Of a stretch of DNA of 64,000 nt, positions 31,269 through 54,442 are shown in pieces. The first letter of the stretch is position 1. Each line of letters starts with the position of its first letter. The notes beneath the pieces were generated by a model that did not search any database, had not been told where the DNA came from, and saw only the letters and a program-made list of their open reading frames with translations. Source of the stretch: Escherichia coli (lineage in GTDB: Bacteria > Pseudomonadota > Gammaproteobacteria > Enterobacterales > Enterobacteriaceae); the NCBI RefSeq assembly GCF_050920415.1, contig NZ_CP169309.1, one strand, 5' to 3'. A program made the translations under genes and the position numbers.

Positions 31269-33679
31269 GTCATGCCGATATGAACAACTGCTGCGGCTTT
31301 AACGAGGCTACCGCAGCATTCTCATGGAACAGCCCGAAAAAGGCCATTAACCCTTATCTGGACCCGGCGGAAGTTGCGCCGGTTTCTGCGCTTTCAAACC
31401 TGATCACTCTGTACGCTGCCGATAACGAGCAGGAACAACTGCGCCGTGAGGCACTGAGTGATCAGGTCTGGGAGCGTTATTTCTTTAATGAATCCCGTGA
31501 TCCTGTCCAGCGCGAAATGGAGCAGGATAAGCTAATTAGCCGGGCAAAGCTGGCGCATGAGCAGCAGCGTTTTAATCCAGACATGGTCATTCTGGCGGAT
31601 GTCAACGCCCAGCCTTCCCATATCAGCAAGCCGCTGATGCAACGTATTAAATACTTCAGCAACCTGGGCAGGCCAAAGGCTTATTCCCGCTATTTGCGTG
31701 AGACGATTAAGCCATGCTTGGAACGACTGGAGCATGTACGCGACAGCCAGCTATCTGCATCTTTTCGTTTTATGGCAAGCCATGAAGGGCTGGACGGTCT
31801 GCTGATCCTGCCTGAAATGAGTCAGGATCAGGTGAAACGCCTGTCCACCCTTGTCGCTGCGCATATGAGCATGTGTCTTGATGCCGCTTGTGGTGATTTG
31901 TACGCCTCCGATGATGTTAAGCCGGAAGAAATCCGCAAGACATGGGAAAAGGTGGCAGCAGAAACCCTGCGACTGGATGTCATACCGCCTGCGTTTGAGC
32001 AACTCCGCCGGAAAAGAAACCGCCGCAAACCTGTGCCCTATGAACTCATTCCGGGTTCGCTGGCGCGTATGCTGTGCGCCGACTGGTGGTATCGGAAATT
32101 ATGGAAGATGCGTTGCGAATGGCGGGAAGAGCAGTTGCGTGCTGTCTGTCTGGTCAGCAAAAAAGCATCTCCCTATGTCAGCTATGAAGCCGTGATGCAT
32201 AAACGTGAGCAGCGCCGTAAGTCGCTGGAGTTTTTCCGTTCTCATGAACTGGTGAACGAAGACGGCGACACGCTGGACATGGAGGATGTGGTAAACGCCA
32301 GCAGCAGCAACCCTGCGCATCGCCGCAATGAGATGATGGCCTGTGTTAAAGGCCTGGAGCTTATCGCGGAAATACGCGGTGACTGCGCCGTTTTCTACAC
32401 CATCACCTGTCCGTCACGTTTCCATTCCACGCTAAATAACGGCAGGCCCAACCCGACCTGGACAAATGCGACGGTAAGACAAAGCAGTGATTATCTGGTT
32501 GGCATGTTTGCTGCATTTCGTAAGGCGATGCACAAAGCCGGATTGCGCTGGTATGGCGTGCGGGTGGCTGAGCCGCATCATGACGGTACAGTTCACTGGC
32601 ACCTGTTGTGTTTTATGCGCAAAAAAGATCGCCGCGCCATTACTGCTTTGTTGCGTAAGTTTGCCATTCGTGAAGACCGCGAGGAGCTGGGGAATAACAC
32701 GGGACCACGCTTTAAGTCTGAGTTGATTAACCCGCGCAAAGGAACGCCGACAAGCTACATCGCGAAATATATCAGTAAGAACATTGACGGGCGTGGTCTG
32801 GCTGGCGAGATCAGCAAGGAAACGGGTAAATCCCTGCGTGATAACGCTGAATACGTGAATGCCTGGGCGTCTCTGCATCGTGTTCAGCAATTCCGCTTCT
32901 TTGGCATTCCGGGGCGTCAGGCTTACCGTGAACTGCGATTGCTGGCTGGTCAGGCGGCAAGGCAACAGGGTGACAAAAAAGCAGGTGCGCCGGTACTGGA
33001 TAACCCGCGCCTTGATGCAATCCTGGCTGCTGCTGATGCTGGTTGTTTTGCCACCTACATCATGAAGCAGGGCGGCGTACTGGTTCCCCGTAAATATCAC
33101 CTCATCAGAACCGCTTATGAAATCAACGAAGAGCCAACCGCCTATGGCGATCACGGTATTCGTATTTATGGCATCTGGTCACCCATTGCAGAGGGCAAGA
33201 TCTGCACTCATGCAGTGAAGTGGAAAATGGTTCGTAAGGCCGTTGACATTCAGGAGGCGGCAGCCGACCAGGGCGCTTGCGCCCCTTGGACTCGTGGCAA
33301 TAACTGTCCCCTTGCTGAAAATTTGAACCAACAGGAGAAAGATAAATCAGCTGATGGGGGCCCCAGAACGGACTTTACCCGCATGGATGACAAGGAGTTG
33401 CACGATTACCTGCACAGTATGAACAAAAAGGGGCGCCGGGAACTGGCTGCAAGGTTACGTCTGGTGAAACCGAAACGGCGTAGAGACTACAAACAGCGAA
33501 TTACAGACCATCAACGACAGCAGCTCGTCTATGAACTGAAATCCAGAGGATTTGATGGCAGCGAGAAAGAGGTCGATTTACTCCTTCGCGGCGGCAGTAT
33601 TCCGTCAGGAGCAGGCCTGCGTATCTTCTATCGGAACCAGCGTTTGCAGGAAGATGATAAGTGGCGGAACCTGTATTAA
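31265..33679 (+). CDS. A: Replication initiation protein (P2 gpA-like rolling-circle endonuclease)
   Basis: 804-aa ORF in the gpA position of the early operon; size and context match P2 A / 186 A. Confidence 0.8.
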
Positions 33680-33774
33680 TTACGCTGGTTAACAATTCGT
33701 GCTCTTAATAATACCAGGCATATCAGGCTGATAAGCGTAAAAAAAACGTTTTACATCAGTAAGATTATTATATA

Positions 33775-33790
33775 CTGTAAATATAAACAG
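33775..33790. promoter_or_regulatory. LexA (SOS) box CTGTAAATATAAACAG
   Basis: Perfect CTGT-N8-ACAG palindrome 44 bp upstream of the 33834 ORF. Confidence 0.65.
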
Positions 33791-33833
33791 TGGTTATACA
33801 TACAGCATTGCGTGTGGTGTCATAGGAGGAAAG

Positions 33834-34022
33834 ATGCAGGACTATTTTTTGGAGTCTTTGAAGCTCCAGCGCATTGATTTTTTTCTTAAGCTTGTAGCGG
33901 CTAGTGAGTGTAGTGATGAAGAGAAGGGGCTGGCTCTGCAGTGGGTTTCTGAATTGACTGATGAACTCATGGCAAAAATCAGAAGCCACGAATACAACCG
34001 CTCAATGGATGTCATCAGCTGA
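33834..34022 (+). CDS. Small protein in Tum-like antirepressor position (62 aa)
   Basis: First ORF downstream of the LexA box; stop overlaps the RBS of the DinI-like gene. Confidence 0.45.
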   Translation: MQDYFLESLKLQRIDFFLKLVAASECSDEEKGLALQWVSELTDELMAKIRSHEYNRSMDVIS

Positions 34023-34032
34023 GGTGACTTTT

Positions 34033-34266
34033 ATGCGCATTGAAATAATGATCGATAAAGAGCAGAAGATTAGCCAGTCTACCCTGGACGCCCTTGAATC
34101 CGAGCTTTACCGCAATCTGCGCCCCCTGTATCCCAAAACGGTAATCCGTATCCGTAAAGGTAGCTCTAACGGTGTGGAACTGACCGGACTGCAACTGGAC
34201 GAAGAAAGAAAACAAGTGATGAAAATTATGCAGAAGGTGTGGGAAGACGACAGCTGGCTGTATTGA
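34033..34266 (+). CDS. DinI-like protein (Tum C-terminal-domain-like)
   Basis: 77-aa ORF MRIEIMIDKEQKISQSTLDALESELYRNLRPLYPKTVIRIRKGSSNGVELTGL...VWEDDSWLY resembles DinI (MRIEV...WESADDWF); GAGGTG RBS. Confidence 0.7.
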   Translation: MRIEIMIDKEQKISQSTLDALESELYRNLRPLYPKTVIRIRKGSSNGVELTGLQLDEERKQVMKIMQKVWEDDSWLY

Positions 34267-34379
34267 TTTTGTCAATAGACGCTTGTTTTTACTAATCAAA
34301 AAGGGTTACATATGAGTGAGAGGCGATGTCAATCAGATATCGCCTTGTTTTTTGTCAAGAAAAGAATAATAGGCTAAAA

Positions 34380-35057
34380 ATGAAAATTAATAATGTAGCG
34401 TTACCAATATCTCTTGCTGTAATCCTAACTGGTTGCGTGCCACATGCTTCTAACCGAAATATCACTGCTATTGAAGTGGTGAAGCCTGCTATTGGGCAAA
34501 GTGCTACCGCCTACATGGGCGATCCCATTATCACATCTGCTACTGGATTTAAAACGGACGTACTAGAACTTGGTGCGGCTAATGGTGCATTGTCTTCTAT
34601 CGCTGCTGGTACATATTGCAGTGAGGGGAATGGAATTTACCGCAATTATCATAACCCTCAAGCTGTTGCGTTAAAAAATCTCTATGGGCAAATCGGTAAC
34701 TATGTTGATTATGTTAGTTACGATGCTGCAAAAAATGAGATATCACCGCCAAATGGTACTTCTTATACTGCATCAGAAATTTCTATCAAACGTGTTCCTG
34801 ATGGGCTGTGTCGAGTTAGTAACTCATTGGTTAAGACTATCGAATACAATGGAAATGCAGGCGGTGTAATGAAGTTCACCTATCGTGAATTTGCAAACGA
34901 TATGGCTCGTGCAGCATTTACAACAGATTTTTCTGTAGATTCTAAGGGAAGTGACGTTATCGCTTACAAAGGTGCCAAGTTCAAAGTGAACAAGGCTGAT
35001 AACTCGTCTATTTCTTATACAATTATTTCTGGCTTTGACAAGGCTGTCACGTTCTAG
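34380..35057 (+). CDS. Predicted lipoprotein (cargo gene between replication module and cos)
   Basis: Start at MKINNVALPISLAVILTGC... with lipobox LTGC; 225 aa; followed by a terminator. Confidence 0.65.
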   Translation: MKINNVALPISLAVILTGCVPHASNRNITAIEVVKPAIGQSATAYMGDPIITSATGFKTDVLELGAANGALSSIAAGTYCSEGNGIYRNYHNPQAVALKNLYGQIGNYVDYVSYDAAKNEISPPNGTSYTASEISIKRVPDGLCRVSNSLVKTIEYNGNAGGVMKFTYREFANDMARAAFTTDFSVDSKGSDVIAYKGAKFKVNKADNSSISYTIISGFDKAVTF

Positions 35058-35374: not shown

Positions 35375-36171
<797 letters not shown>

Positions 36172-36174
36172 AAC

Positions 36175-37338
36175 AGCTCCTCATAGGCACTCAACGGCCT
36201 GTGTTCCACCTGACTGACCTGCTGCCAGAGTGGGGCGTGATGCTCCGGCACGGTCTGCCAGCCGTATACAGCCGAACAGAGACGGTGCGATGCTACCTGT
36301 TGCTCATTACTGTAGATCCGCAGTTCATCATCCAGCGAGATCCGTATTGATACCGGCTGGCCACACAGGCTTTCCGGCACGCTGTAACGGTTCCCGCCAA
36401 CCTCGATATAGCCATCCCAGGAGACATGACGGATATCGAAGTAGCTGGTATCGAAGTCCGTACCTGGCAGCGCCTGCAGATGCACCTGTTCCTGCGTGAA
36501 GCGCTGTTCCGGTGTCTGCCTGAACTGGCGAAGTCCCGCCTGTCGGCAACGTCAGCCATCCACTGCTCCAGTAGCTGATTAACATGGGCGAAGCTGTCGA
36601 ACCGGCGGTACCGGACGAAGAAGTTTTCCTTGAGGTATTTCACCATCCGTTCCACCTTACCTTTGGTTCTGGCCCTTCGTGGACGGCAGGCCCGTGGCAG
36701 GAAGCCATAGTGATGGCCAGCAGCAGGAACCCGGAGTTGAACACCACCTTCCCGTTGTTATTTTTCAGCACTGCGGCTTTCTGGTTATCGACCAGCACGG
36801 TTTTCACGCTGCCGCCGAAGTAGCGAAAGGCGCGGACCAGTGACTCATAGGTATGTTCAGCATCCTGCTTTGGTGCCGCGAAGACATGGAAGCGACGTGA
36901 GAACCCCAGCGTATTAACCGCGAAGTTAACCCTGCATCGTTGCCCGGCAACCTCAGCCTCAACTTCTCCCCAGTCATGCTGTAGCTGGTAACCGGGCTGA
37001 GTTTCGAAGCGAACCGTTTTCTTCGATGGCCGCATCTTACGTTTGGGCTGGATGTAGTAACGCAACATGGAACGGCCACCGGTATAACCCATCGCTTTGA
37101 TTTCCGCCAGGATGACCTCGCCGTTCCAGACATTCTCAGCCAGACGCATGTCGATATAGTCCATGAACGGCTTGAGTTTGGCCATTTTGTGGCGTGTTTT
37201 TCTGGCCGGAGGTTCCGGGTATTTCAGGTACCGTCTGACAGTCCGCTCAGAGCAACCAACCTGAGTGGCAATATCAACAATATACGCACCTTGCTGGCGC
37301 ATTTGCTTTATCATGTAAAAGTCCTCTCTGCTCAGCAT
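36175..37338 (-). pseudogene. istA: IS21-family transposase IstA, frameshifted
   Basis: N-terminal 232-aa fragment (36640..37338, HTH region MIKQMRQQGAYIVDIATQVGCSERTVRRYL) followed by C-terminal pieces in other frames (36168..36655). Confidence 0.7.
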
Positions 37339-37485: not shown

Positions 37486-38184
37486 ATGGTTATGTTAGTG
37501 GATGACTGTCCACGATGTGGATCACAAAAAATAGCGTTTGATGTTAATGGGCTGAATTGCACTAGGGTTTACAATGCATTGGGCGGGGGTAAAACATACG
37601 AGTACGAGGTCTATTGTGTTTGCCGAGAGTGTCATAAAACGACAATGTTTCTTTGCAGACCTTTAACGAAAAATAAAACTTTAGATGGCTATAATTGGGA
37701 AAGTGGAATATTCGGCTTAAAGGAAGTTGCAGAGGTTGTTAGGCCTATATCACCGGCAGACTTAGCAGTAGAGGAGCCACCAGAGTTCTTACCTGAGCAT
37801 ATCAATAGTGCATATGAGGAAGGGGCGAAATGTTTGGCTATAGGTTGTTATAATGCAGCAGCAACCATGTTTAGGCTTTGCCTTGATTATGCCACAAAAG
37901 GACTTCTTCCTGATGGGGAGCAAGGGCCTGCGCAAAAAATAAGGAGAAGCCTAGGGTTAAGAATGGAGTGGTTATTTGATAATCATCTACTGCCTGAAGC
38001 TTTAAGGGAACTAGCTGAATGCGTTAAAGATGACGGAAATGATGGAGCGCATGAAGGTATTTTGGATAAAGCTGCTGCTGAGGATCTTGAAGATTTTACC
38101 TATCTTTTTTTAGAACGGCTTTACACTGAACCTCAACGCCTTATCGAAGCCAAGACAAGGCGTGAACAAAGAAGAAACAAATAA
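37486..38184 (+). CDS. Hypothetical protein with N-terminal zinc-ribbon (CPRCG...CRECH) and C-terminal DUF4145-like helical domain
   Basis: 232-aa ORF with GGGAGGAG RBS; Cys4 cluster in first 50 aa; C-terminal region resembles DUF4145 (domain assignment from memory, unverified). Confidence 0.6.
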   Translation: MVMLVDDCPRCGSQKIAFDVNGLNCTRVYNALGGGKTYEYEVYCVCRECHKTTMFLCRPLTKNKTLDGYNWESGIFGLKEVAEVVRPISPADLAVEEPPEFLPEHINSAYEEGAKCLAIGCYNAAATMFRLCLDYATKGLLPDGEQGPAQKIRRSLGLRMEWLFDNHLLPEALRELAECVKDDGNDGAHEGILDKAAAEDLEDFTYLFLERLYTEPQRLIEAKTRREQRRNK

Positions 38185-46578: not shown

Positions 46579-47109
46579 TTACGCTCTTAATAAACTTAAA
46601 TAACTTTTTATGCTTTGGCAAAAAGGGAAAAGGTCTATTTTAATTTTCCAGTTTTTTTTGTTTTGAACCCCAGAAGCAATAATAGAACCGTCCCAATATT
46701 TTATTCCATTTTTGCCGGTCTTTTTTGTTAACTCAAAACTTAATGCGTGAATAATTTTATTGCAGCATTCGCGTATAGAATCTTTAACATGACCATCTAT
46801 AACAAAAAGTATATTTTCATGTTCTTCAAATGCTTCTTTCTCAGGTGAGTAATCTGGGTTCCACTCATGTTCACTAGTGTCTTGGAGAATTCGTAGTTTT
46901 GTACAAAGGCTAATAAGATTGTTGCTAATGGTATATTCCAACCATCCGTTGTACGATAACTCCTCCATTTCAAATTCAGTTACTATAGAACCATCATATA
47001 CTTTCTGTGTGGAATATATACGCTGTAAATAAAATTCAGATGAACAGCATAATTGCTCAATTATTCTTGCGTGTTCTTCTATAGCGTAATAATCAATTGG
47101 ATGGCTCAT
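46579..47109 (-). CDS. Hypothetical protein, AT-rich cargo gene in the P2 orf30 position (between S and V, opposite strand)
   Basis: 176 aa from Met preceded by AAAGGT RBS (ORF-track start at 47148 would overlap gene V); strongly AT-biased. Confidence 0.55.
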   Translation of the reverse strand: MSHPIDYYAIEEHARIIEQLCCSSEFYLQRIYSTQKVYDGSIVTEFEMEELSYNGWLEYTISNNLISLCTKLRILQDTSEHEWNPDYSPEKEAFEEHENILFVIDGHVKDSIRECCNKIIHALSFELTKKTGKNGIKYWDGSIIASGVQNKKNWKIKIDLFPFCQSIKSYLSLLRA

Positions 47110-47204
47110 TCTTTTACCTTTCTTTGATTGGAATTGTATTTGTGTCATTTACCACACAAGGACGTATTGATGCCATAGATTCAAGGTCCGTGCAACCTAA
47201 CCCT

Positions 47205-49034: not shown

Positions 49035-49632
49035 TCTGCTGCCACCGGGTTCAACTTCACTGGAGCGCCGACTGGCGCAAACCTGTAGCGGGATTTCTGA
49101 TCTGCAGGTGCCGCTGCGTGACTTGTGGAATCCGGCTACCTGTCCGGTCAGCTTCCTGCCTTATCTCGCCTGGGCGTTCTCTGTGGATCGCTGGGACGAG
49201 GGCTGGACAGAAAGCGTCAAACGCCAGGTAGTGAAGGATGCTTTTTATATTCATCAGCATAAAGGAACTACCAGTGCCGTGCGGCGGGTGGTGGAACCGT
49301 TCGGATTCCTGATCCGCATTATTGAGTGGTGGCAGACCGGAGAAACACCGGGCACGTTTCGCCTGGATATCGGCGTGCAGGACCAGGGCATCACTGAAGA
49401 TACCTATCTGGAACTTGAGCGGCTGATAAGCGATGCCAAACCATGTAGCCGTCACATGATCGGCATGTCCATCAATCTGCAGACCAGCGGTCCGCATTGG
49501 GTGGGGGCCGCCAGCTATCTTGGCGAAGAAATCACGATCTATCCGTATATCAACGAAACAATTATTTCCGGCGGCACCGCGCATGAAGGCGGGGCGGTCC
49601 ATGTTATTGACACAATGAGAGTGAATCCATGA
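49027..49632 (+). CDS. I: Tail/baseplate protein (P2 gpI-like)
   Basis: 201-aa ORF ...LWNPATCPVSFLPYLAWAFSVDRWDEGW... matches the gpI signature. Confidence 0.85.
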   Translation: MNSLLPPGSTSLERRLAQTCSGISDLQVPLRDLWNPATCPVSFLPYLAWAFSVDRWDEGWTESVKRQVVKDAFYIHQHKGTTSAVRRVVEPFGFLIRIIEWWQTGETPGTFRLDIGVQDQGITEDTYLELERLISDAKPCSRHMIGMSINLQTSGPHWVGAASYLGEEITIYPYINETIISGGTAHEGGAVHVIDTMRVNP

Positions 49633-51026
49633 GCACAAAATTTTATACCCTGCTGACGGATATTGGCGCGGCGAAACTTGCCAGCGCCGCCGCGCTCGGT
49701 GTGCCGCTAAAAATTACCCATATGGCGGTGGGCGATGGCGGCGGAACATTGCCAACGCCGGACGCCAAGCAGACAGCATTGGTAAATGAGAAACGCCGGG
49801 CTGCGCTGAATATGCTCTATATCGACCCGCAGAACAGCAGCCAGATTATTGCTGAACAGGTGATCCCTGAAAACGAGGGCGGTTGGTGGATACGTGAAGT
49901 GGGCCTGTTTGATGAGTCCGGGGCATTGATTGCCGTGGGCAACTGCCCGGAAAGCTATAAGCCGCAACTGGCTGAAGGCAGCGGGCGTACCCAGACCGTG
50001 CGCATGGTGCTGATTACCAGCAGCACGGACAATATCACCCTGAAAATCGACCCTGCCGTAGTGCTGGCAACCCGCAAGTATGTGGATGACAAGGTACTGG
50101 AGCTGAAGGTGTACGTGGATGATCAGATGGCAAAACATCTTGCCGCACCGGACCCGCATTCACAGTATGCACCCAAAGAAAGTCCGACGTTTACCGGGAC
50201 ACCAAAAGCGCCAACTCCAGCGGCAGGGAATAACACCACGCAGGTTGCGACCACCGCGTTTGTTCAGGCGGCACTGACGGCTCTTATTAATGGTGCGCCA
50301 GCCACGCTGGACACGCTGAAAGAAATAGCCGCAGCCATTAACAATGATCCGAATTTCAGTACCACCATTAACAATGCGCTGGCACTGAAAGCGCCGTTGT
50401 CGAGTCCGGCACTCACCGGAACGCCAACAGCCCCCACTGCTGCACAGTCGGTCAACAATACACAGATTGCCACCACGGCTTTTGTGAAATCGGCGATTGC
50501 AGCAATGGTAGGTTCTGCACCTGCGGCACTGGATACACTGAACGAACTGGCGTCGGCGTTGGGGAATGATCCGAACTTTGCCACGACAATGCTTAATGCG
50601 CTGGCAGGTAAACAACCGCTGGACAATACGCTGACTAATTTGAGTGGAAAGGATGTCGCTGGTCTTCTCGCATACCTTGGTTTGGGGGAATTGGCTCTGG
50701 CTGGCGCAACAACCGGCGCTATGTTGGTGAATGGGTATGTAGCAATTCCATTAATTATTTCTGGCGTTCGGAGACCACTTATTATCCAGTGGGGAGTGGG
50801 GCAGTTTGGGGGAAGTCTGGGGGATGATGCGGGATATTTAAACAATTTCCCTTTCGCTTTTCCGTCGGCGTGCTACGTGATGGTTGCCAGCCACGTGGGG
50901 CATACACCTTCGGGTGCCGGAATACTATCTGCTTCCGCAATCACAAAAAGCGGCTTTCGTGGTTTTTCCAGCGTAGTGACTGCCGCAAATCCTGTATCGG
51001 GCTGTTATGTTGCTATAGGAGGGTGA
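49629..51026 (+). CDS. H: Tail fibre protein (gpH-like), C-terminal part encoded within invertible segment
   Basis: 465-aa ORF; conserved N-terminal tail-fibre region, crossover site at 50665-50690 inside the gene. Confidence 0.85.
   Translation: MSTKFYTLLTDIGAAKLASAAALGVPLKITHMAVGDGGGTLPTPDAKQTALVNEKRRAALNMLYIDPQNSSQIIAEQVIPENEGGWWIREVGLFDESGALIAVGNCPESYKPQLAEGSGRTQTVRMVLITSSTDNITLKIDPAVVLATRKYVDDKVLELKVYVDDQMAKHLAAPDPHSQYAPKESPTFTGTPKAPTPAAGNNTTQVATTAFVQAALTALINGAPATLDTLKEIAAAINNDPNFSTTINNALALKAPLSSPALTGTPTAPTAAQSVNNTQIATTAFVKSAIAAMVGSAPAALDTLNELASALGNDPNFATTMLNALAGKQPLDNTLTNLSGKDVAGLLAYLGLGELALAGATTGAMLVNGYVAIPLIISGVRRPLIIQWGVGQFGGSLGDDAGYLNNFPFAFPSACYVMVASHVGHTPSGAGILSASAITKSGFRGFSSVVTAANPVSGCYVAIGG
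50665..50690. promoter_or_regulatory. Left recombination site of invertible segment (gix/pix-like)
   Basis: TTCTCGCATACCTTGGTTTGGGGGAA matches the reverse complement of the right site in about 20 of 26 positions. Confidence 0.55.
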
Positions 51027-51027
51027 T

Positions 51028-51462
51028 GTGTTTTTTAGTCCATCTTTAAATATTTTTGTGAATCCTGCGCTTAAGGATGACTACATCAATGTAAATTCAT
51101 GGCCAGATGATGCTGTTGAAGTTGATGAGCAGGTGTATATTGAGTTTTCCGGATTACCGCCGAAAGGAAAAATCCGTATCGCTGGGGAAAATGGTTTTCC
51201 TGCATGGTCTGAAATTCCACCACCAACGCATGAGGAACAGATTGCCGCAGCCGAATTGAAAAAACAGCAATTGATTAATCAGTCCAACGAATATATGAAT
51301 ACCAAGCAATGGCCTGGTAAAGCGGCTATTGGTCGTCTGAAAGGTGAGGAACTGGCGCAATATAATTTGTGGCTGGATTATCTGGACGCACTGGAACTGG
51401 TTGATACCTCCAGTGCTCCAGATATTGAATGGCCTACGCCTCCGGCAGTTCAGGCCAGATGA
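51028..51462 (+). CDS. G: Tail fibre assembly chaperone (gpG/U-like), current orientation
   Basis: 144-aa ORF directly after H. Confidence 0.7.
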   Translation: MFFSPSLNIFVNPALKDDYINVNSWPDDAVEVDEQVYIEFSGLPPKGKIRIAGENGFPAWSEIPPPTHEEQIAAAELKKQQLINQSNEYMNTKQWPGKAAIGRLKGEELAQYNLWLDYLDALELVDTSSAPDIEWPTPPAVQAR

Positions 51463-52027
51463 CATCCGGCGCGGTGCTCGTATCTGTTGCCGTCACCGCG
51501 TCAATGTAATCAAGCACGGCGTTAAGCCGGGTGGTTTCTGCCTGCGTCAGCTTCCGCCCGGCCTGTAATTTCAGCTGAATCAGACTGATGGAAGCCATTG
51601 CAGCATCAATCAGTGACTGGCGCTGTGCTTCTGCCGCTTCTACTGCGGCACCGTGTTGTGCCTCAGTATCTGTCACCCATTTCTCACCATCCCATTTATC
51701 GTATGGCGTTAACGGTGAAAGCGTGACATAACCGTCTTTGATGGCACCGATATAATCCACTGTAACAGCAGCACCATTTTCGATTGAGTAAACAGTCTCA
51801 TTGCGATGGTCTTCTTCATGGCTCCATCCCTTACCTGTAAATACTGCCACTCTTCCCGGAATGTTTTCGCCAGGGTCAATACCAGTTGAACAGGCGGGCA
51901 TACTTACGCCAGTATTAATATATTCATCAGACCAGCCCGTATACTCAGATGTTTCAGCATCATAATAAAAACAACGCATATCACCCGGCACTGTAGCCAG
52001 CCCATTTTCATCAAAAACAGGTTTCAT
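51434..52027 (-). CDS. Alternative tail fibre assembly chaperone (inverted-orientation copy)
   Basis: 197-aa minus-strand ORF inside the invertible segment, downstream of the alternative fibre tip. Confidence 0.65.
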   Translation of the reverse strand: MKPVFDENGLATVPGDMRCFYYDAETSEYTGWSDEYINTGVSMPACSTGIDPGENIPGRVAVFTGKGWSHEEDHRNETVYSIENGAAVTVDYIGAIKDGYVTLSPLTPYDKWDGEKWVTDTEAQHGAAVEAAEAQRQSLIDAAMASISLIQLKLQAGRKLTQAETTRLNAVLDYIDAVTATDTSTAPDVIWPELPEA

Positions 52028-52533
52028 TATGCAGCCCTCACAATATAATTAAAGGCGATGTTACGTGGACGGTTTTCATTAGCTGTTGGCACGACACGAG
52101 AGGCGTCGAATCCAAGGTCATCGGTTTTGTCTATAGTAGTTGTGTTATTCGGCATTCTCGCTGATCGTGTTCCTGCATCGTAAAAAGCCCCTCTGATTGC
52201 ATCAAAAGACATACCGATCCCGCCATCTGCGAATCCCTCAATATTTCTTATTGCATCCCCCTGTGAAGATAATAATTGTCGCCCGGCATCCACTCCACGT
52301 CCGTCATCCCAGCCACGAATAAATTCACCGCGTAAATCAGGCAATTTATTTTTCGGATAAACCTTTGCCAGTTCCGGGTATTCTTCAGCAGAAAAAGCCG
52401 CACCGTTGCATTTCAGCCAGCCAGTAGGCGGTGTGGCTGAAGGCCACGGAACAGGCACACCAACGGGTAATGCTGAACCTTCTCCCAAACCAACGTTTAT
52501 GAAAATGCAGAGATAACGGCTAACTGGCATCAT
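52027..52533 (-). CDS. Alternative tail fibre C-terminal segment (expressed only after inversion)
   Basis: 168-aa minus-strand ORF that reads through the right crossover site; would fuse to the constant part of H after inversion. Confidence 0.6.
   Translation of the reverse strand: MMPVSRYLCIFINVGLGEGSALPVGVPVPWPSATPPTGWLKCNGAAFSAEEYPELAKVYPKNKLPDLRGEFIRGWDDGRGVDAGRQLLSSQGDAIRNIEGFADGGIGMSFDAIRGAFYDAGTRSARMPNNTTTIDKTDDLGFDASRVVPTANENRPRNIAFNYIVRAA
52480..52505. promoter_or_regulatory. Right recombination site of invertible segment (gix/pix-like)
   Basis: TTCTCCCAAACCAACGTTTATGAAAA, inverted relative to the left site. Confidence 0.55.
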
Positions 52534-52560
52534 CTCCGGTTTTTATTCAGGGGGATGATC

Positions 52561-53127
52561 ATGCTTATTGGCTATGTACGCGTGTCAACAAATGACCAGA
52601 ACACCGATTTGCAACGTAATGCACTGAACTGCGCGGGATGTGAGCGGATTTTTGAGGATAAAATCAGTGGCACTAAGTCCGACAGACCGGGGCTGAAAAA
52701 GCTGCTCAGGACACTATCGGCAGGAGACACGCTGGTTGTCTGGAAGCTGGACAGGTTGGGGCGCAGTATGCGGCATCTTGTTACGCTGATAGAGGAGTTG
52801 CGCCAGCGTGGTGTGAATTTCCGAAGCCTGACTGACAGTATTGATACCAGTACCCCAATGGGCCGTTTCTTTTTTCATGTCATGGGTGCCCTGGCTGAAA
52901 TGGAACGCGAACTGATAGTTGAACGTACCAGGGCAGGGCTGGCTGCAGCTCGTGCCAAAGGCAGAGTAGGTGGACGCCGTCCTAAGTTGACCACCGAACA
53001 GTGGGCACAGATTGGGCGTTTACTCGAGGCCGGAGAATCAAGACAGCGTATTGCACTGATTTTTGATGTGGGTGTTTCCACAATTTATAGAAAATTTCCG
53101 GCAAATAAGAGTAATGAATCCCCCTGA
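52561..53127 (+). CDS. pin: Site-specific DNA invertase (serine recombinase, Pin/Gin/Hin family)
   Basis: MLIGYVRVSTNDQNTDLQRNAL... with catalytic Ser (VRVSTNDQ) and C-terminal HTH; adjacent to invertible segment. Confidence 0.9.
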   Translation: MLIGYVRVSTNDQNTDLQRNALNCAGCERIFEDKISGTKSDRPGLKKLLRTLSAGDTLVVWKLDRLGRSMRHLVTLIEELRQRGVNFRSLTDSIDTSTPMGRFFFHVMGALAEMERELIVERTRAGLAAARAKGRVGGRRPKLTTEQWAQIGRLLEAGESRQRIALIFDVGVSTIYRKFPANKSNESP

Positions 53128-53269
53128 ATCAGCATTATTTTGATTATCCCTGCAAGTAGACAAATACCGTCATTTTGTGTGAATAACGGTACAACTGCGC
53201 TTAGCTGTTTGTCAGGCACAATCACTTCAACATAGGGCGAAGCCTAATCCAATCAGGAGGTTCGCCACT

Positions 53270-54442
53270 ATGGCTCAGGATTACCACCACGGGGTGCGCG
53301 TTGTTGAAGTCAACGAAGGCACCCGATCCATTACCACGGTGAGCACCGCCATCGTGGGCATGGTCTGCACGGGCGATGATGCCGATGCAAAAATGTTTCC
53401 TCTTAACAAACCTGTGCTGATCACTGATGTGCTGACTGCCAGCGGTAAAGCGGGTGAGTCCGGCACGCTGGCCCGTTCGCTGGATGCCATCGCTGACCAG
53501 GCAAAACCCGTGACCGTTGTTGTGCGTGTGCCGCAGGGTGAAACGGAAGAAGAAACCACGACCAATATCATCGGCGCAGTGACTGCTGAAGGTAAAAAAA
53601 CAGGCATGAAAGCTCTGTTATCTGCCCAGTCACAGCTCGGCGTTAAACCGCGCATTCTCGGCGTGCCAGGTCACGATAACAAAGCCGTTGCGACTGAGTT
53701 GCTGAGCGTGGCGCAAAGCCTGCGTGGGTTTGCTTACCTGTCAGCGTATGGCTGCAAGACGGTACAGGAGGCGATCACTTACCGTGAAAACTTCAGCCAG
53801 CGCGAAGGAATGCTGATCTGGCCCGACTTTACTGGCTGGGACACGGTGCTGAATGCCGAAGCAACGGCATATGCCACCGCCCGTGCACTTGGTCTGCGTG
53901 CCAAAATTGATGAGCAGACCGGGTGGCACAAAAGCCTGTCCAACGTGGGCGTGAACGGTGTCACCGGAATTTCTGCAGATGTGTTCTGGGATCTGCAGGA
54001 CCCGGCAACCGATGCAGGTCTGCTGAACCAGAACGACGTCACCACGCTTGTGCGTAAAGACGGTTTCCGCTTCTGGGGTTCCCGCTGTCTGAGCGATGAT
54101 CCGCTTTTTGCCTTCGAAAACTACACCCGCACGGCGCAGGTGCTGACGGACACAATGGCAGAAGCACACATGTGGGCGGTGGATAAACCGCTTAACCCGT
54201 CGCTGGCCCGCGACATTATCGAAGGTATCCGCGCCAAAATACGCAGCCTGGTCAGTCAGGGCTATCTCATTGGTGGTGATTGCTGGCTGGATGAGTCGGT
54301 GAACGACAAAGACACGCTGAAAGCCGGAAAACTCACCATCGACTATGACTACACGCCAGTGCCGCCACTTGAAAATCTGATGCTGCGCCAGCGCATCACC
54401 GATCAGTACCTGGTGAATTTCGCCAGCCAGGTCAGCGCGTAA
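53270..54442 (+). CDS. FI: Contractile tail sheath protein (P2 gpFI-like)
   Basis: 390-aa [38 protein letters not shown]... Confidence 0.9.

What the first reader, a model, noticed from the sequence alone, without database searches (positions are those of the whole stretch)
50665..53127. Invertible tail-fibre (host-range) segment with cognate Pin-type invertase in the P2 Z/fun slot
Two ~26-bp sites in inverted orientation (50665-50690 and 52480-52505; about 20 of 26 positions match) flank a 1.8-kb segment. The segment carries the C-terminal part of tail fibre gene H plus a chaperone on the plus strand, and an alternative fibre tip plus chaperone on the minus strand. A Gin/Pin-family invertase gene lies immediately outside. 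This is a Mu G-segment-like switch, so the phage can alternate receptor specificity; canonical P2 has no such segment.
Basis: partly seen in the sequence, partly recalled or inferred. Interest (0 to 1): 0.6.

Follow-up and report, generated by a model that had tools for sequence, protein, structure and literature searches.

The report
Invertible tail-fibre switch in P2-like prophage
This is a real, apparently working DNA-flipping switch that lets an E. coli P2-like prophage swap the tip of its tail fibre, but it is a common module already described in the literature.

Summary
Two 26-bp sites in inverted orientation (50665-50690, 52480-52505; 20/26 complementary, the same central TT dinucleotide) flank a 1.8-kb segment. 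The segment holds two convergent cassettes, each a fibre tip plus its chaperone. An intact 188-aa serine invertase (52561-53127; 85% identical to e14 PinE, 77% to Cin, 74% to Gin) lies just outside, in the slot where P2 carries fun(Z). The invertase-proximal site is identical to the e14 pix site. Flipping the segment in silico at the central dinucleotide gives an in-frame 504-aa H' protein. That exact protein is a called gene in public assemblies whose DNA is at least 99.88% identical to the window and has the segment inverted exactly at the two sites. Both isomers of this very prophage therefore exist in nature. The module is ordinary. The identical invertase is indexed in 9,692 blocks of public assemblies. 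Inversion in E. coli P2-like prophages was shown experimentally in 2014 (PMC4272514). Invertases in the P2 Z/fun hotspot have been described (bioRxiv 10.1101/2024.10.15.618418). Alternation of receptor specificity is inferred by analogy, not shown here. Verdict: already known, low interest.

The parts
49629..50676 (+). Constant part of tail-fibre gene H (Hc; N-terminal ~349 codons). It lies outside the invertible segment and is transcribed with the P2-type late tail operon.
   Evidence: Pfam Phage_tail_fib PF12571 over residues 1-150. PHROG tail fibre families. Collinear in both inversion isomers.
50665..50690 (+). Left (invertase-distal) crossover site, inside H: TTCTCGCATACC-TT-GGTTTGGGGGAA, i.e. 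two 12-bp half-sites around a 2-bp core at 50677-50678.
   Evidence: It matches the distal e14 site at 22/26. Alignment breakpoints of the natural isomers fall within it.
50677..52493 (.). Invertible segment, 1817 bp counted from core to core.
   Evidence: In L006-L011 the inverted alignment spans window 50677-52496 (50698-52496 in L011, whose contig ends there) at 99.89-99.95% identity. Where the right flank is present (L006-L009) both flanks are collinear. The same boundaries hold for L001 vs L002.
50691..51026 (+). Variable tip 1 (Hv), fused in frame to Hc in the orientation seen in the window. It has a gp53-like C-terminal domain.
   Evidence: Pfam Gp53-like_C PF21882 over H residues 384-464, E 4e-11. 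36% identical to the e14 StfP C-terminus.
51028..51462 (+). Tail-fibre assembly chaperone 1 (TfaP-like), paired with tip 1.
   Evidence: phrog_188 tail fiber assembly, E 1.5e-61. 58% identical to e14 TfaP. Pfam Caudo_TAP on the matching gene in relatives.
51434..52027 (-). Tail-fibre assembly chaperone 2 (TfaE-like), paired with tip 2. It is convergent with chaperone 1 and overlaps it by 29 bp.
   Evidence: phrog_105, E 1.6e-84. 64% identical to e14 TfaE.
52027..52491 (-). Variable tip 2 (Hv'), silent in this orientation. It has a phage tail collar domain and becomes the C-terminus of a 504-aa H' after inversion.
   Evidence: Pfam Collar PF07484, E 2.7e-14. 60% identical to e14 StfE. The in-silico flip is in frame, and the exact 504-aa product exists in public assemblies.
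52480..52505 (+). Right (invertase-proximal) crossover site: TTCTCCCAAACC-AA-CGTTTATGAAAA, with the core at 52492-52493.
   Evidence: Identical (26/26) to the site next to pinE in E. coli K-12 e14, L003 4606-4631.
52561..53127 (+). Pin-type DNA invertase, a small serine recombinase of 188 aa. The likely start is ATG 52561, preceded by GGGGGA.
   Evidence: 85/77/74% identical to PinE/Cin/Gin, with R7, S9, D64, R65 and R68 invariant. phrog_125 DNA invertase, E 1e-101. Best solved-structure matches are Gin, 3UJ3 and 4M6F, E 8e-93. Pfam Resolvase + HTH_7 are recorded for the identical protein.
52579..52650 (+). Putative Fis-dependent recombinational enhancer inside the 5' end of the invertase gene. 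It is inferred by homology only.
   Evidence: It is positionally homologous to the annotated P1 cin enhancer, cin nt 19-90. Nucleotide identity to pinE/cin/gin is 88/78/72% here versus 75/68/67% in the rest of the gene. Two G-N13-C 15-mers are centred at 52589 and 52638.

Best explanation
This is a Pin/Gin/Cin-type site-specific inversion switch for the tail fibre of a P2-like prophage integrated at ssrA in E. coli. The serine invertase (52561-53127) binds the two 26-bp sites and cuts at their central TT/AA dinucleotides. By analogy with Gin, Hin and Cin it would do this in a synapse that also needs the Fis-bound enhancer inside its own gene. It then flips the 1.8-kb segment. The promoter and the N-terminal ~349 codons of H stay fixed outside the segment. 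Whichever tip+chaperone cassette faces them is expressed with the late tail operon. In the orientation seen here, that gives a 465-aa H with a gp53-like tip plus a TfaP-like chaperone. In the other orientation it gives a 504-aa H' with a collar-domain tip plus a TfaE-like chaperone. A lysogen population would therefore release two kinds of virion, presumably with different receptor specificities. What is shown: the sites, the frame-preserving fusion, the intact invertase, and the natural occurrence of both isomers of this same prophage. What is inferred: Fis/enhancer dependence, late-operon expression of only the facing cassette, and different host ranges.
For: The sites are specific: 2 hits in 64 kb against 0 in shuffles. 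The right site is identical to the e14 site next to pinE and the left matches the distal e14 site at 22/26. The core dinucleotide is the same when the two sites are read in inverted orientation, as inversion requires. The in-silico flip at the core yields an uninterrupted 504-aa H'. That exact 504-aa protein is a called gene in 24 contigs read (26 index blocks), and the window's own 465-aa H is in 39 blocks. Loci L006-L011 are 99.88-99.98% identical to the window. Their segment is inverted with breakpoints inside the 26-bp sites, and L013-L017 share the window's orientation. L011 and L017 come from adjacent assembly accessions, have zero mismatches over 5040 nt, and have opposite orientations. 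The G/A difference in the inner half-site travels with the segment, as expected for exchange at the central dinucleotide. Among complete E. coli genomes, 15 hold at least 80% of the region in the window's orientation and 21 in the flipped one. The invertase has intact catalytic residues and is 74-85% identical to Pin/Cin/Gin. Published work used sequencing and PCR to show inversions of about 1.8 and 2.2 kb within one P2-like prophage of E. coli E2348/69, phase variation in a second P2-like prophage of that strain, and inversion in e14 (PMC4272514).
Against: Nothing in the sequence speaks against it. The limits are as follows. No read-level data from this strain are available, so flipping in this particular lysogen is not observed directly. 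The enhancer is supported only by homology, and the excess of synonymous-codon conservation there is not significant (5/19 vs 10/92, one-sided Fisher p = 0.083). The two G-N13-C 15-mers picked out as candidate Fis cores are centred 49 bp apart, against the 48 bp I recall for the Hin enhancer; that figure is from memory and was not checked here. No sigma-70-like promoter for the invertase stands out above shuffles. The receptors of the two tips are unknown. The isomers seen in other strains could in principle have been produced by a related invertase acting in trans.
Confidence: 0.92

Rival explanations
1. The switch is cis-dead or dependent on another element. The sites are substrates, but this prophage's own invertase or enhancer is not what flips them. 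The natural isomers would then come from related invertases (PinE, PinQ, PinR or those of other prophages) acting in trans.
For: Cross-action between invertases of different prophages is documented: PinQ of Qin inverts the e14 P segment (PMC12529663). E. coli genomes commonly hold several such loci, with a median of 2 and up to 10 matching places per genome. The right site is identical to the e14 site.
Against: The invertase ORF is intact, with all catalytic residues conserved. The identical 188-aa protein is kept next to many different cassettes in thousands of assemblies, which argues for selection on its function. The enhancer-homologous stretch is conserved.
Confidence: 0.04
2. The main pay-off is to the lysogen rather than the phage. 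One orientation would produce a fibre-derived protein that blocks adsorption of other phages, as reported for the StfE2 chimera made by inversion of the e14 P segment.
For: Tip 2 is 60% identical to e14 StfE, and the cassettes are e14-like overall. The published PinQ/StfE2 result (PMC12529663).
Against: Here the fibre gene sits in what looks like a complete P2-like prophage. The prophage is bounded by att repeats at 25105-25150 and 61026-61071 and has the full run of tail genes. From established knowledge of P2, the V-to-G operon is transcribed only late after induction, so H is expected to be silent in the lysogen. No promoter-like site upstream of the cassettes stands out.
Confidence: 0.03
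3. The inverted repeat is a chance match, and the opposed fibre genes are just a mosaic left by past recombination, not a switch.
For: At 20/26, the repeat taken alone is modest. Another 26-nt pair at 73% complementarity exists in the same region (I2).
Against: The consensus search finds only these two sites in 64 kb and none in shuffles. One site is identical to the e14 site. The frame is preserved across the flip. Both isomers occur in near-identical prophages, with breakpoints inside the sites.
Confidence: 0.01

Closest known systems
e14 P segment with PinE (E. coli K-12 cryptic prophage e14: stfP-tfaP / tfaE-stfE / pinE)
   Same: The gene order and orientations are the same. The invertase-proximal crossover site is identical and the distal site matches at 22/26. 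The invertase is 85% identical. The chaperones are 58% and 64% identical and the tips 36% and 60%. The segment sizes are similar: 1817 bp core to core here, against 1797 bp reported for e14 (PMC12529663).
   Different: The host element here is a seemingly complete P2-like myovirus prophage at ssrA, not the defective lambdoid e14 at icd. The constant part is a P2-type H N-terminus (PF12571), much longer than that of StfP. The tips have diverged.
Invertible tail-fibre segments of P2-like prophages and phages
   Same: These have the same position (after H, before FI) and the same layout of two tips, two chaperones and an invertase. Examples are the E. coli E2348/69 P2-like prophages, Escherichia phage Cartapus, pro483, 500465-1 and Klebsiella phage KP12; Fels-2 with its Fin invertase is added from memory. 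The flanks are 96-99.9% identical in Cartapus, KP12 and 500465-1. Inversion in E2348/69 was shown by sequencing and PCR (PMC4272514). An invertase in the Z/fun hotspot was noted in bioRxiv 10.1101/2024.10.15.618418.
   Different: Only the cassette content differs between members. Cartapus has 99.9% identical flanks but a different segment, covering 51% of the query. One E2348/69 prophage has three sites and four isomers, whereas the window has two sites. That Fin is encoded by Fels-2 rests on my own knowledge plus the title cited in PMC4272514; the paper itself was not available.
Mu G segment/Gin and P1 C segment/Cin
   Same: The logic is the same: constant Sc outside, Sv+U and Sv'+U' inside, and the invertase next to the segment. 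The site architecture is the same, 26 bp with 12-bp half-sites and a 2-bp core. The invertases are 74% (Gin) and 77% (Cin) identical. The enhancer lies in the 5' end of the invertase gene, as annotated for P1.
   Different: Those segments are larger: 3.0 kb in Mu (boundaries annotated 31966-35025) and 4.2 kb in P1. BLASTP at E <= 1e-3 finds no similarity between the window's tips or chaperones and the Mu/P1 S and U proteins. The core dinucleotide is TC/GA in Mu against TT/AA here. In P1 the invertase gene lies on the side away from Sc.

Membership tests
Gin/Hin/Cin/Pin DNA-inversion systems (small serine invertases) | Small serine recombinase with an N-terminal catalytic domain (Ser nucleophile near residue 9-10 plus conserved Arg/Asp) and a C-terminal helix-turn-helix. 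| tested here: met
   188 aa. S9, R7, D64, R65 and R68 are invariant with PinE, Cin and Gin at 74-85% identity. Best solved-structure hits are Gin 3UJ3 and 4M6F, E 8e-93 over residues 1-184. PF00239 and PF02796 are recorded for the identical protein.
Gin/Hin/Cin/Pin DNA-inversion systems (small serine invertases) | Two 26-bp crossover sites in inverted orientation, each made of two imperfect 12-bp half-sites around a 2-bp core, with the same core sequence in both. | tested here: met
   Sites at 50665-50690 and 52480-52505, with core TT and its complement AA. The half-sites are TTCTCGCATACC, TTCCCCCAAACC, TTCTCCCAAACC and TTTTCATAAACG. The right site is identical to the e14 site, and the layout matches the annotated cix and gix sites.
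Gin/Hin/Cin/Pin DNA-inversion systems (small serine invertases) | Fis-dependent recombinational enhancer in cis, located in the 5' end of the invertase gene in Gin, Cin and Hin. | tested here: inconclusive
   Window 52579-52650 is homologous to the annotated P1 enhancer. It is more conserved at the nucleotide level than the rest of the gene: 88/78/72% vs 75/68/67%. The synonymous-codon excess is not significant, p = 0.083. Fis binding and dependence cannot be tested with these tools.
Gin/Hin/Cin/Pin DNA-inversion systems (small serine invertases) | The segment actually inverts, so both isomers exist. | tested here: met
   Prophage copies at least 99.88% identical to the window occur in both orientations, with breakpoints inside the sites. 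This also holds for 98.8%-identical prophages in complete genomes. It was not observed within a single culture of this strain.
Phage tail-fibre host-range switches (Mu G, P1 C, e14 P, p15B Min type) | The constant 5' part of the fibre gene and its promoter lie outside the segment. Alternative 3' parts, each with its own chaperone gene, lie inside in opposite orientation and are in frame after inversion. | tested here: met
   ORF map. Domain and family hits. In-frame 504-aa H' after the in-silico flip, found exactly in public assemblies.
Phage tail-fibre host-range switches (Mu G, P1 C, e14 P, p15B Min type) | The two isomers confer different adsorption specificities. | not testable with these tools
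   The two tips belong to unrelated domain families, Gp53-like_C and Collar, which makes different receptors plausible. No receptor assignment could be made.
P2-like phages (Peduoviridae) | P2 gene order around the fibre genes (R S V W J I H G ... FI FII E T) and prophage organisation with int-C at one end. | tested here: met
   Pfam families of neighbouring genes in near-identical loci: P2_Phage_GpR, Phage_tail_S, Phage_base_V, GPW_gp25, Baseplate_J, Tail_P2_I, sheath, tube, P2_GpE. Integrase and repressor at 26816-28463. att repeats at 25105-25150 and 61026-61071. Reference P2 map.

The most novel reading that the evidence does not exclude
The crossover sites of this module may also recombine with the heterologous Pin-type site of a second prophage elsewhere in the chromosome, producing megabase-scale rearrangements. 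In draft assembly GCA_015711375.1 (L010), a copy of this prophage that is 99.9% identical is joined exactly at the central dinucleotide of its right site to the outer half-site and 182-aa invertase of a Mu/e14-like prophage. That second prophage normally sits next to yciI-tonB. The hybrid site reads TTCCCCCAAACC-AA-CCTTTTTTATAA. If real, tail-fibre switches of different prophages would act as portable sites for invertase-driven chromosome inversion. The evidence does not exclude an assembly chimera. No complete genome in the collection shows the same junction. The window itself shows no such event.
Probability: 0.3. Interest if true: 0.35.

Novelty: already known. Interest (0 to 1): 0.12.

Why it matters
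For annotation, it matters in a practical way. The 'pseudogene' or 'partial tail protein' calls next to such invertases are the silent cassette of a working switch. The orientation in an assembly is a snapshot, not a fixed trait. For phage biology it adds one more documented case, with natural isomers, of a bet-hedging host-range switch. It also shows the same invertase and constant fibre part carrying many different tip cassettes. It opens no new question.

Tried and rejected
1. NCBIfam gave no family for the fibre and chaperone proteins. PHROGs and Pfam were used instead.
2. The sigma-70 promoter and terminator scan of 50600-53300 found no more sites than shuffles (3 vs 3.6). No promoter is claimed for the invertase or the silent cassette.
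3. A test for extra synonymous-site conservation over the putative enhancer went in the expected direction but was not significant (5/19 vs 10/92, p = 0.083).
4. A third crossover site, which would make a shufflon-like four-isomer system as in E2348/69, was looked for at up to 4 mismatches and not found.
5. The window sequence itself is not in the complete-genome E. coli collection. The best matches were 97% over 89% of the query. Exact-protein look-ups were therefore used to find near-identical copies.
6. The hybrid junction of L010 was searched in complete genomes and not found. The one 95%-coverage hit is only 87.9% identical and is a different native arrangement.
7. The paper on the Fels-2 Fin invertase (PMC1347348) is not held. 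That comparison rests on memory and on its citation in PMC4272514.
8. PADLOC gave nothing above weak hits for the cargo genes that were tried.
Full report
**1. What is in the sequence**

The window carries a P2-like prophage of about 35.9 kb in an E. coli chromosome. The flank at 61000-64000 (ssrA, smpB, ratA, bamE, recN) is 99.7-100% identical to E. coli genomes. A tmRNA gene lies at 61027-61389 on the minus strand. Its 3'-terminal 46 bp (61026-71) is repeated at 25105-25150, which marks the two att ends. An integrase and a repressor lie at 26816-28463. The tail region follows the P2 order R, S, V, W, J, I, H, then sheath, tube, E and tape measure. This is shown by the Pfam families recorded for the same genes in near-identical loci.

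**2. The observation**

The repeat finder returns the inverted pair at exactly the coordinates given:
- 50665-50690: TTCTCGCATACCTTGGTTTGGGGGAA
- 52480-52505: TTCTCCCAAACCAACGTTTATGAAAA

The arms are 26 nt and 20/26 complementary, with 1789 nt between them.

The pair is specific, not a chance match:
- A consensus for Gin/Cin/Pin-type sites with up to 3 mismatches finds only these two places in 64 kb, and none in 100 shuffles.
- Relaxing to 4 mismatches adds no third site.

Each site reads as two 12-bp half-sites around a central dinucleotide. The dinucleotide is TT at 50677-78 and its complement AA at 52492-93, so the cores are the same when the sites are read in inverted orientation.

The right site is identical over all 26 bp to the site next to pinE in the K-12 e14 element. 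The left site matches the distal e14 site at 22/26. The annotated cix sites of P1 and the G-segment boundaries of Mu have the same layout.

**3. The genes**

| Feature | Coordinates | Evidence |
|---|---|---|
| H (465 aa) | 49629-51026 (+) | P2-type N-terminal domain PF12571; crosses the left site at codons 346-354; ends in a Gp53-like_C domain |
| Chaperone 1 | 51028-51462 (+) | tail-fibre assembly gene, phrog_188 |
| Chaperone 2 | 51434-52027 (-) | phrog_105 |
| Tip 2 | 52027-52533 (-) | Collar domain PF07484; crosses the right site |
| Invertase | 52561-53127 (+) | see below |

The four cassette proteins are most like those of the e14 P segment. Tip 1 is 36% identical to StfP, chaperone 1 is 58% to TfaP, chaperone 2 is 64% to TfaE and tip 2 is 60% to StfE. 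BLASTP at E <= 1e-3 finds no similarity to the Mu or P1 S and U proteins.

The ORF at 52555-53127 most likely starts at ATG 52561, five bases after GGGGGA. It encodes a 188-aa serine recombinase.
- It is 85% identical to PinE, 77% to Cin and 74% to Gin. R7, S9, D64, R65 and R68 are invariant.
- Its best solved-structure relatives are the Gin structures 3UJ3 and 4M6F, at E 8e-93.

FI starts at 53270, so the module fills the G-FI gap. In reference P2 that gap holds fun(Z) on the minus strand and no invertase.

**4. Does it flip?**

Reversing 50677-52493 in silico leaves the reading frame intact. It produces a 504-aa H' in which the constant part continues ...LLAYLGLGE-GSALPVGVPVPWP... into the collar tip. 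The stop codon of H' overlaps the ATG of chaperone 2.

An exact-sequence look-up finds this predicted 504-aa protein as a called gene in 24 contigs read (26 index blocks). The window's own 465-aa H is in 39 blocks.

At the DNA level:
- L006-L011 are 99.88-99.98% identical to the window. The middle piece aligns in reverse over window 50677-52496 (50698-52496 in L011, whose contig ends there).
- The left flank is collinear up to 50690 in all six. The right flank is collinear from 52480 in L006-L009. L010 continues into a different locus, and the L011 contig ends inside the segment.
- L013-L017 have the window's orientation at 99.94-99.99% identity.
- L011 and L017, from adjacent assembly accessions, have no mismatch in 5040 nt but opposite orientations.

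The inner half-site carries a G/A difference: GGTTTGGGGGAA on the left and TTCTCCCAAACC on the right in the window. This difference swaps sides in the flipped copies, as expected if exchange occurs at the central dinucleotide.

Two complete genomes give the same picture. MFDS1006657 and DE17 are 98.8% identical over the locus and differ by this inversion alone. Overall, 15 complete genomes hold at least 80% of the region in the window's orientation and 21 in the flipped one.

I take this as strong evidence that the switch is active in this prophage lineage. It is not a direct observation in this strain.

**5. Mechanism**

By homology with Gin, Cin, Hin and Pin, the invertase should cut both sites at the central dinucleotide and rotate the strands within a synapse that also needs a Fis-bound enhancer.

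P1 annotates that enhancer at cin nt 19-90. The homologous stretch here is 52579-52650. It is 88/78/72% identical to pinE/cin/gin, against 75/68/67% for the rest of the gene. It contains two G-N13-C 15-mers centred at 52589 and 52638. Those centres are 49 bp apart, against the 48 bp I recall for the Hin enhancer; that figure is from memory and was not checked. The excess of identical synonymous codons there is not significant, at p = 0.083. The enhancer therefore remains an inference.

The promoter scan gave nothing above background. That only the cassette facing Hc is expressed, from the P2 late operon, follows from the gene layout and from established P2 biology; it was not tested. That the two tips bind different receptors is plausible, because their domains are unrelated, but it is also untested.

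**6. Comparison with what is known**

The module is a member of the Pin/Gin/Cin inversion family and is closest to the e14 P segment. It is not new in P2-like phages.
- In the phage collection, many P2-like phages of Escherichia and Klebsiella show two tail-fibre genes, two assembly genes and a DNA invertase before the sheath gene. Examples are Cartapus, KP12, 500465-1 and pro483.
- Several of these have 96-99.9% identical flanks and a different segment.
- The identical 188-aa invertase is indexed in 9,692 blocks of public assemblies, next to varied cassettes.
- Goldberg et al. 2014 detected and PCR-confirmed inversions of about 1.8 and 2.2 kb within one P2-like prophage of E. coli E2348/69. 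They also found phase variation in a second P2-like prophage of that strain and inversion in e14 (PMC4272514).
- A 2024 preprint notes that a DNA invertase is often encoded in the Z/fun hotspot of P2-like phages, with inversion of the adjacent genes (bioRxiv 10.1101/2024.10.15.618418).
- A 2025 paper reports that inversion of the e14 P segment creates a chimeric fibre protein that blocks T2 adsorption (PMC12529663). I consider that lysogen-level role unlikely here, because H belongs to a late operon of an apparently intact prophage.

**7. Verdict**

The element is already known, so interest is low.

The one unexpected thing lies outside the window. In L010, this prophage's right site is a hybrid with the site of a different prophage near yciI-tonB. 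That could be inter-prophage site-specific recombination or an assembly chimera. No complete genome shows the junction.

Noticed in passing
L010 6852-6877 (GCA_015711375.1, JACEFL010000001.1); partner site L019 6008-6033: A 99.9%-identical copy of this prophage is joined, exactly at the core of its right crossover site, to the outer half-site and a different 182-aa invertase of a Mu/e14-like prophage. That prophage normally sits next to yciI-tonB. The hybrid site is TTCCCCCAAACC-AA-CCTTTTTTATAA. This could be inter-prophage Pin-site recombination (a roughly Mb-scale inversion) or a chimeric contig. The junction was not found in complete genomes.
   Followed up: partly
window 25283-26803 (-): A 506-aa protein matches the NCBIfam GapS1 antiphage family above its cut-off (428.5 bits vs 320). 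It lies inside the prophage between the left att repeat (25105-25150) and the integrase, so it is probably prophage defence cargo in low-GC DNA of about 35%.
   Followed up: partly
window 46579-47148 (-): A minus-strand ORF of 189 aa (GC about 43%) is inserted between tail genes S and V. It matches only phrog_18838 (unknown function), has no Pfam, NCBIfam or PADLOC hit, and is absent from the related locus L012. It is a moron of unknown function.
   Followed up: partly
window 35375-37338 (-) and 37486-38184 (+): Broken IS21-family element in the P2 tin/old hotspot between the replication gene and the portal gene: istA-like fragments at 36293-37338 and DnaC/IstB-like fragments at 35375-36171. 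Next to it lies a 232-aa protein that gives a weak PD-T7-4 hit (E 1e-6) and matches phrog_1305, a 'DNA binding protein' family.
   Followed up: partly
window 16548-24945: Chromosomal island to the left of the prophage. It holds a YpjCB family protein (16548-18002) and an IS2 transposase (19440-20345). An Ag43/AIDA-like autotransporter is split into a 1299-aa passenger ORF (20330-24229) and a separate 236-aa beta-barrel ORF (24235-24945), so it is probably a pseudogene.
   Followed up: no
window 18157-18184 and 61001-61028: A 28-bp exact direct repeat of the sequence at the prophage end abutting ssrA. It may be the scar of an earlier ssrA-integrated element to the left of the present prophage, pointing to tandem or successive integration at ssrA.
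   Followed up: no
L011 and L017 (GCA_053834505.1 and GCA_053834425.1): These two assemblies have adjacent accessions, identical flanks (0 mismatches in 5040 nt) and opposite segment orientations. Both contigs end at or inside the invertible segment. That would fit mixed orientations within the sequenced cultures.
   Followed up: partly
window 60421-60903 (-): A 160-aa ORF between the tail gene D region and the right att/ssrA matches phrog_2561, which is annotated 'DNA ligase'. That is an unexpected annotation for this position at the prophage end.
   Followed up: no
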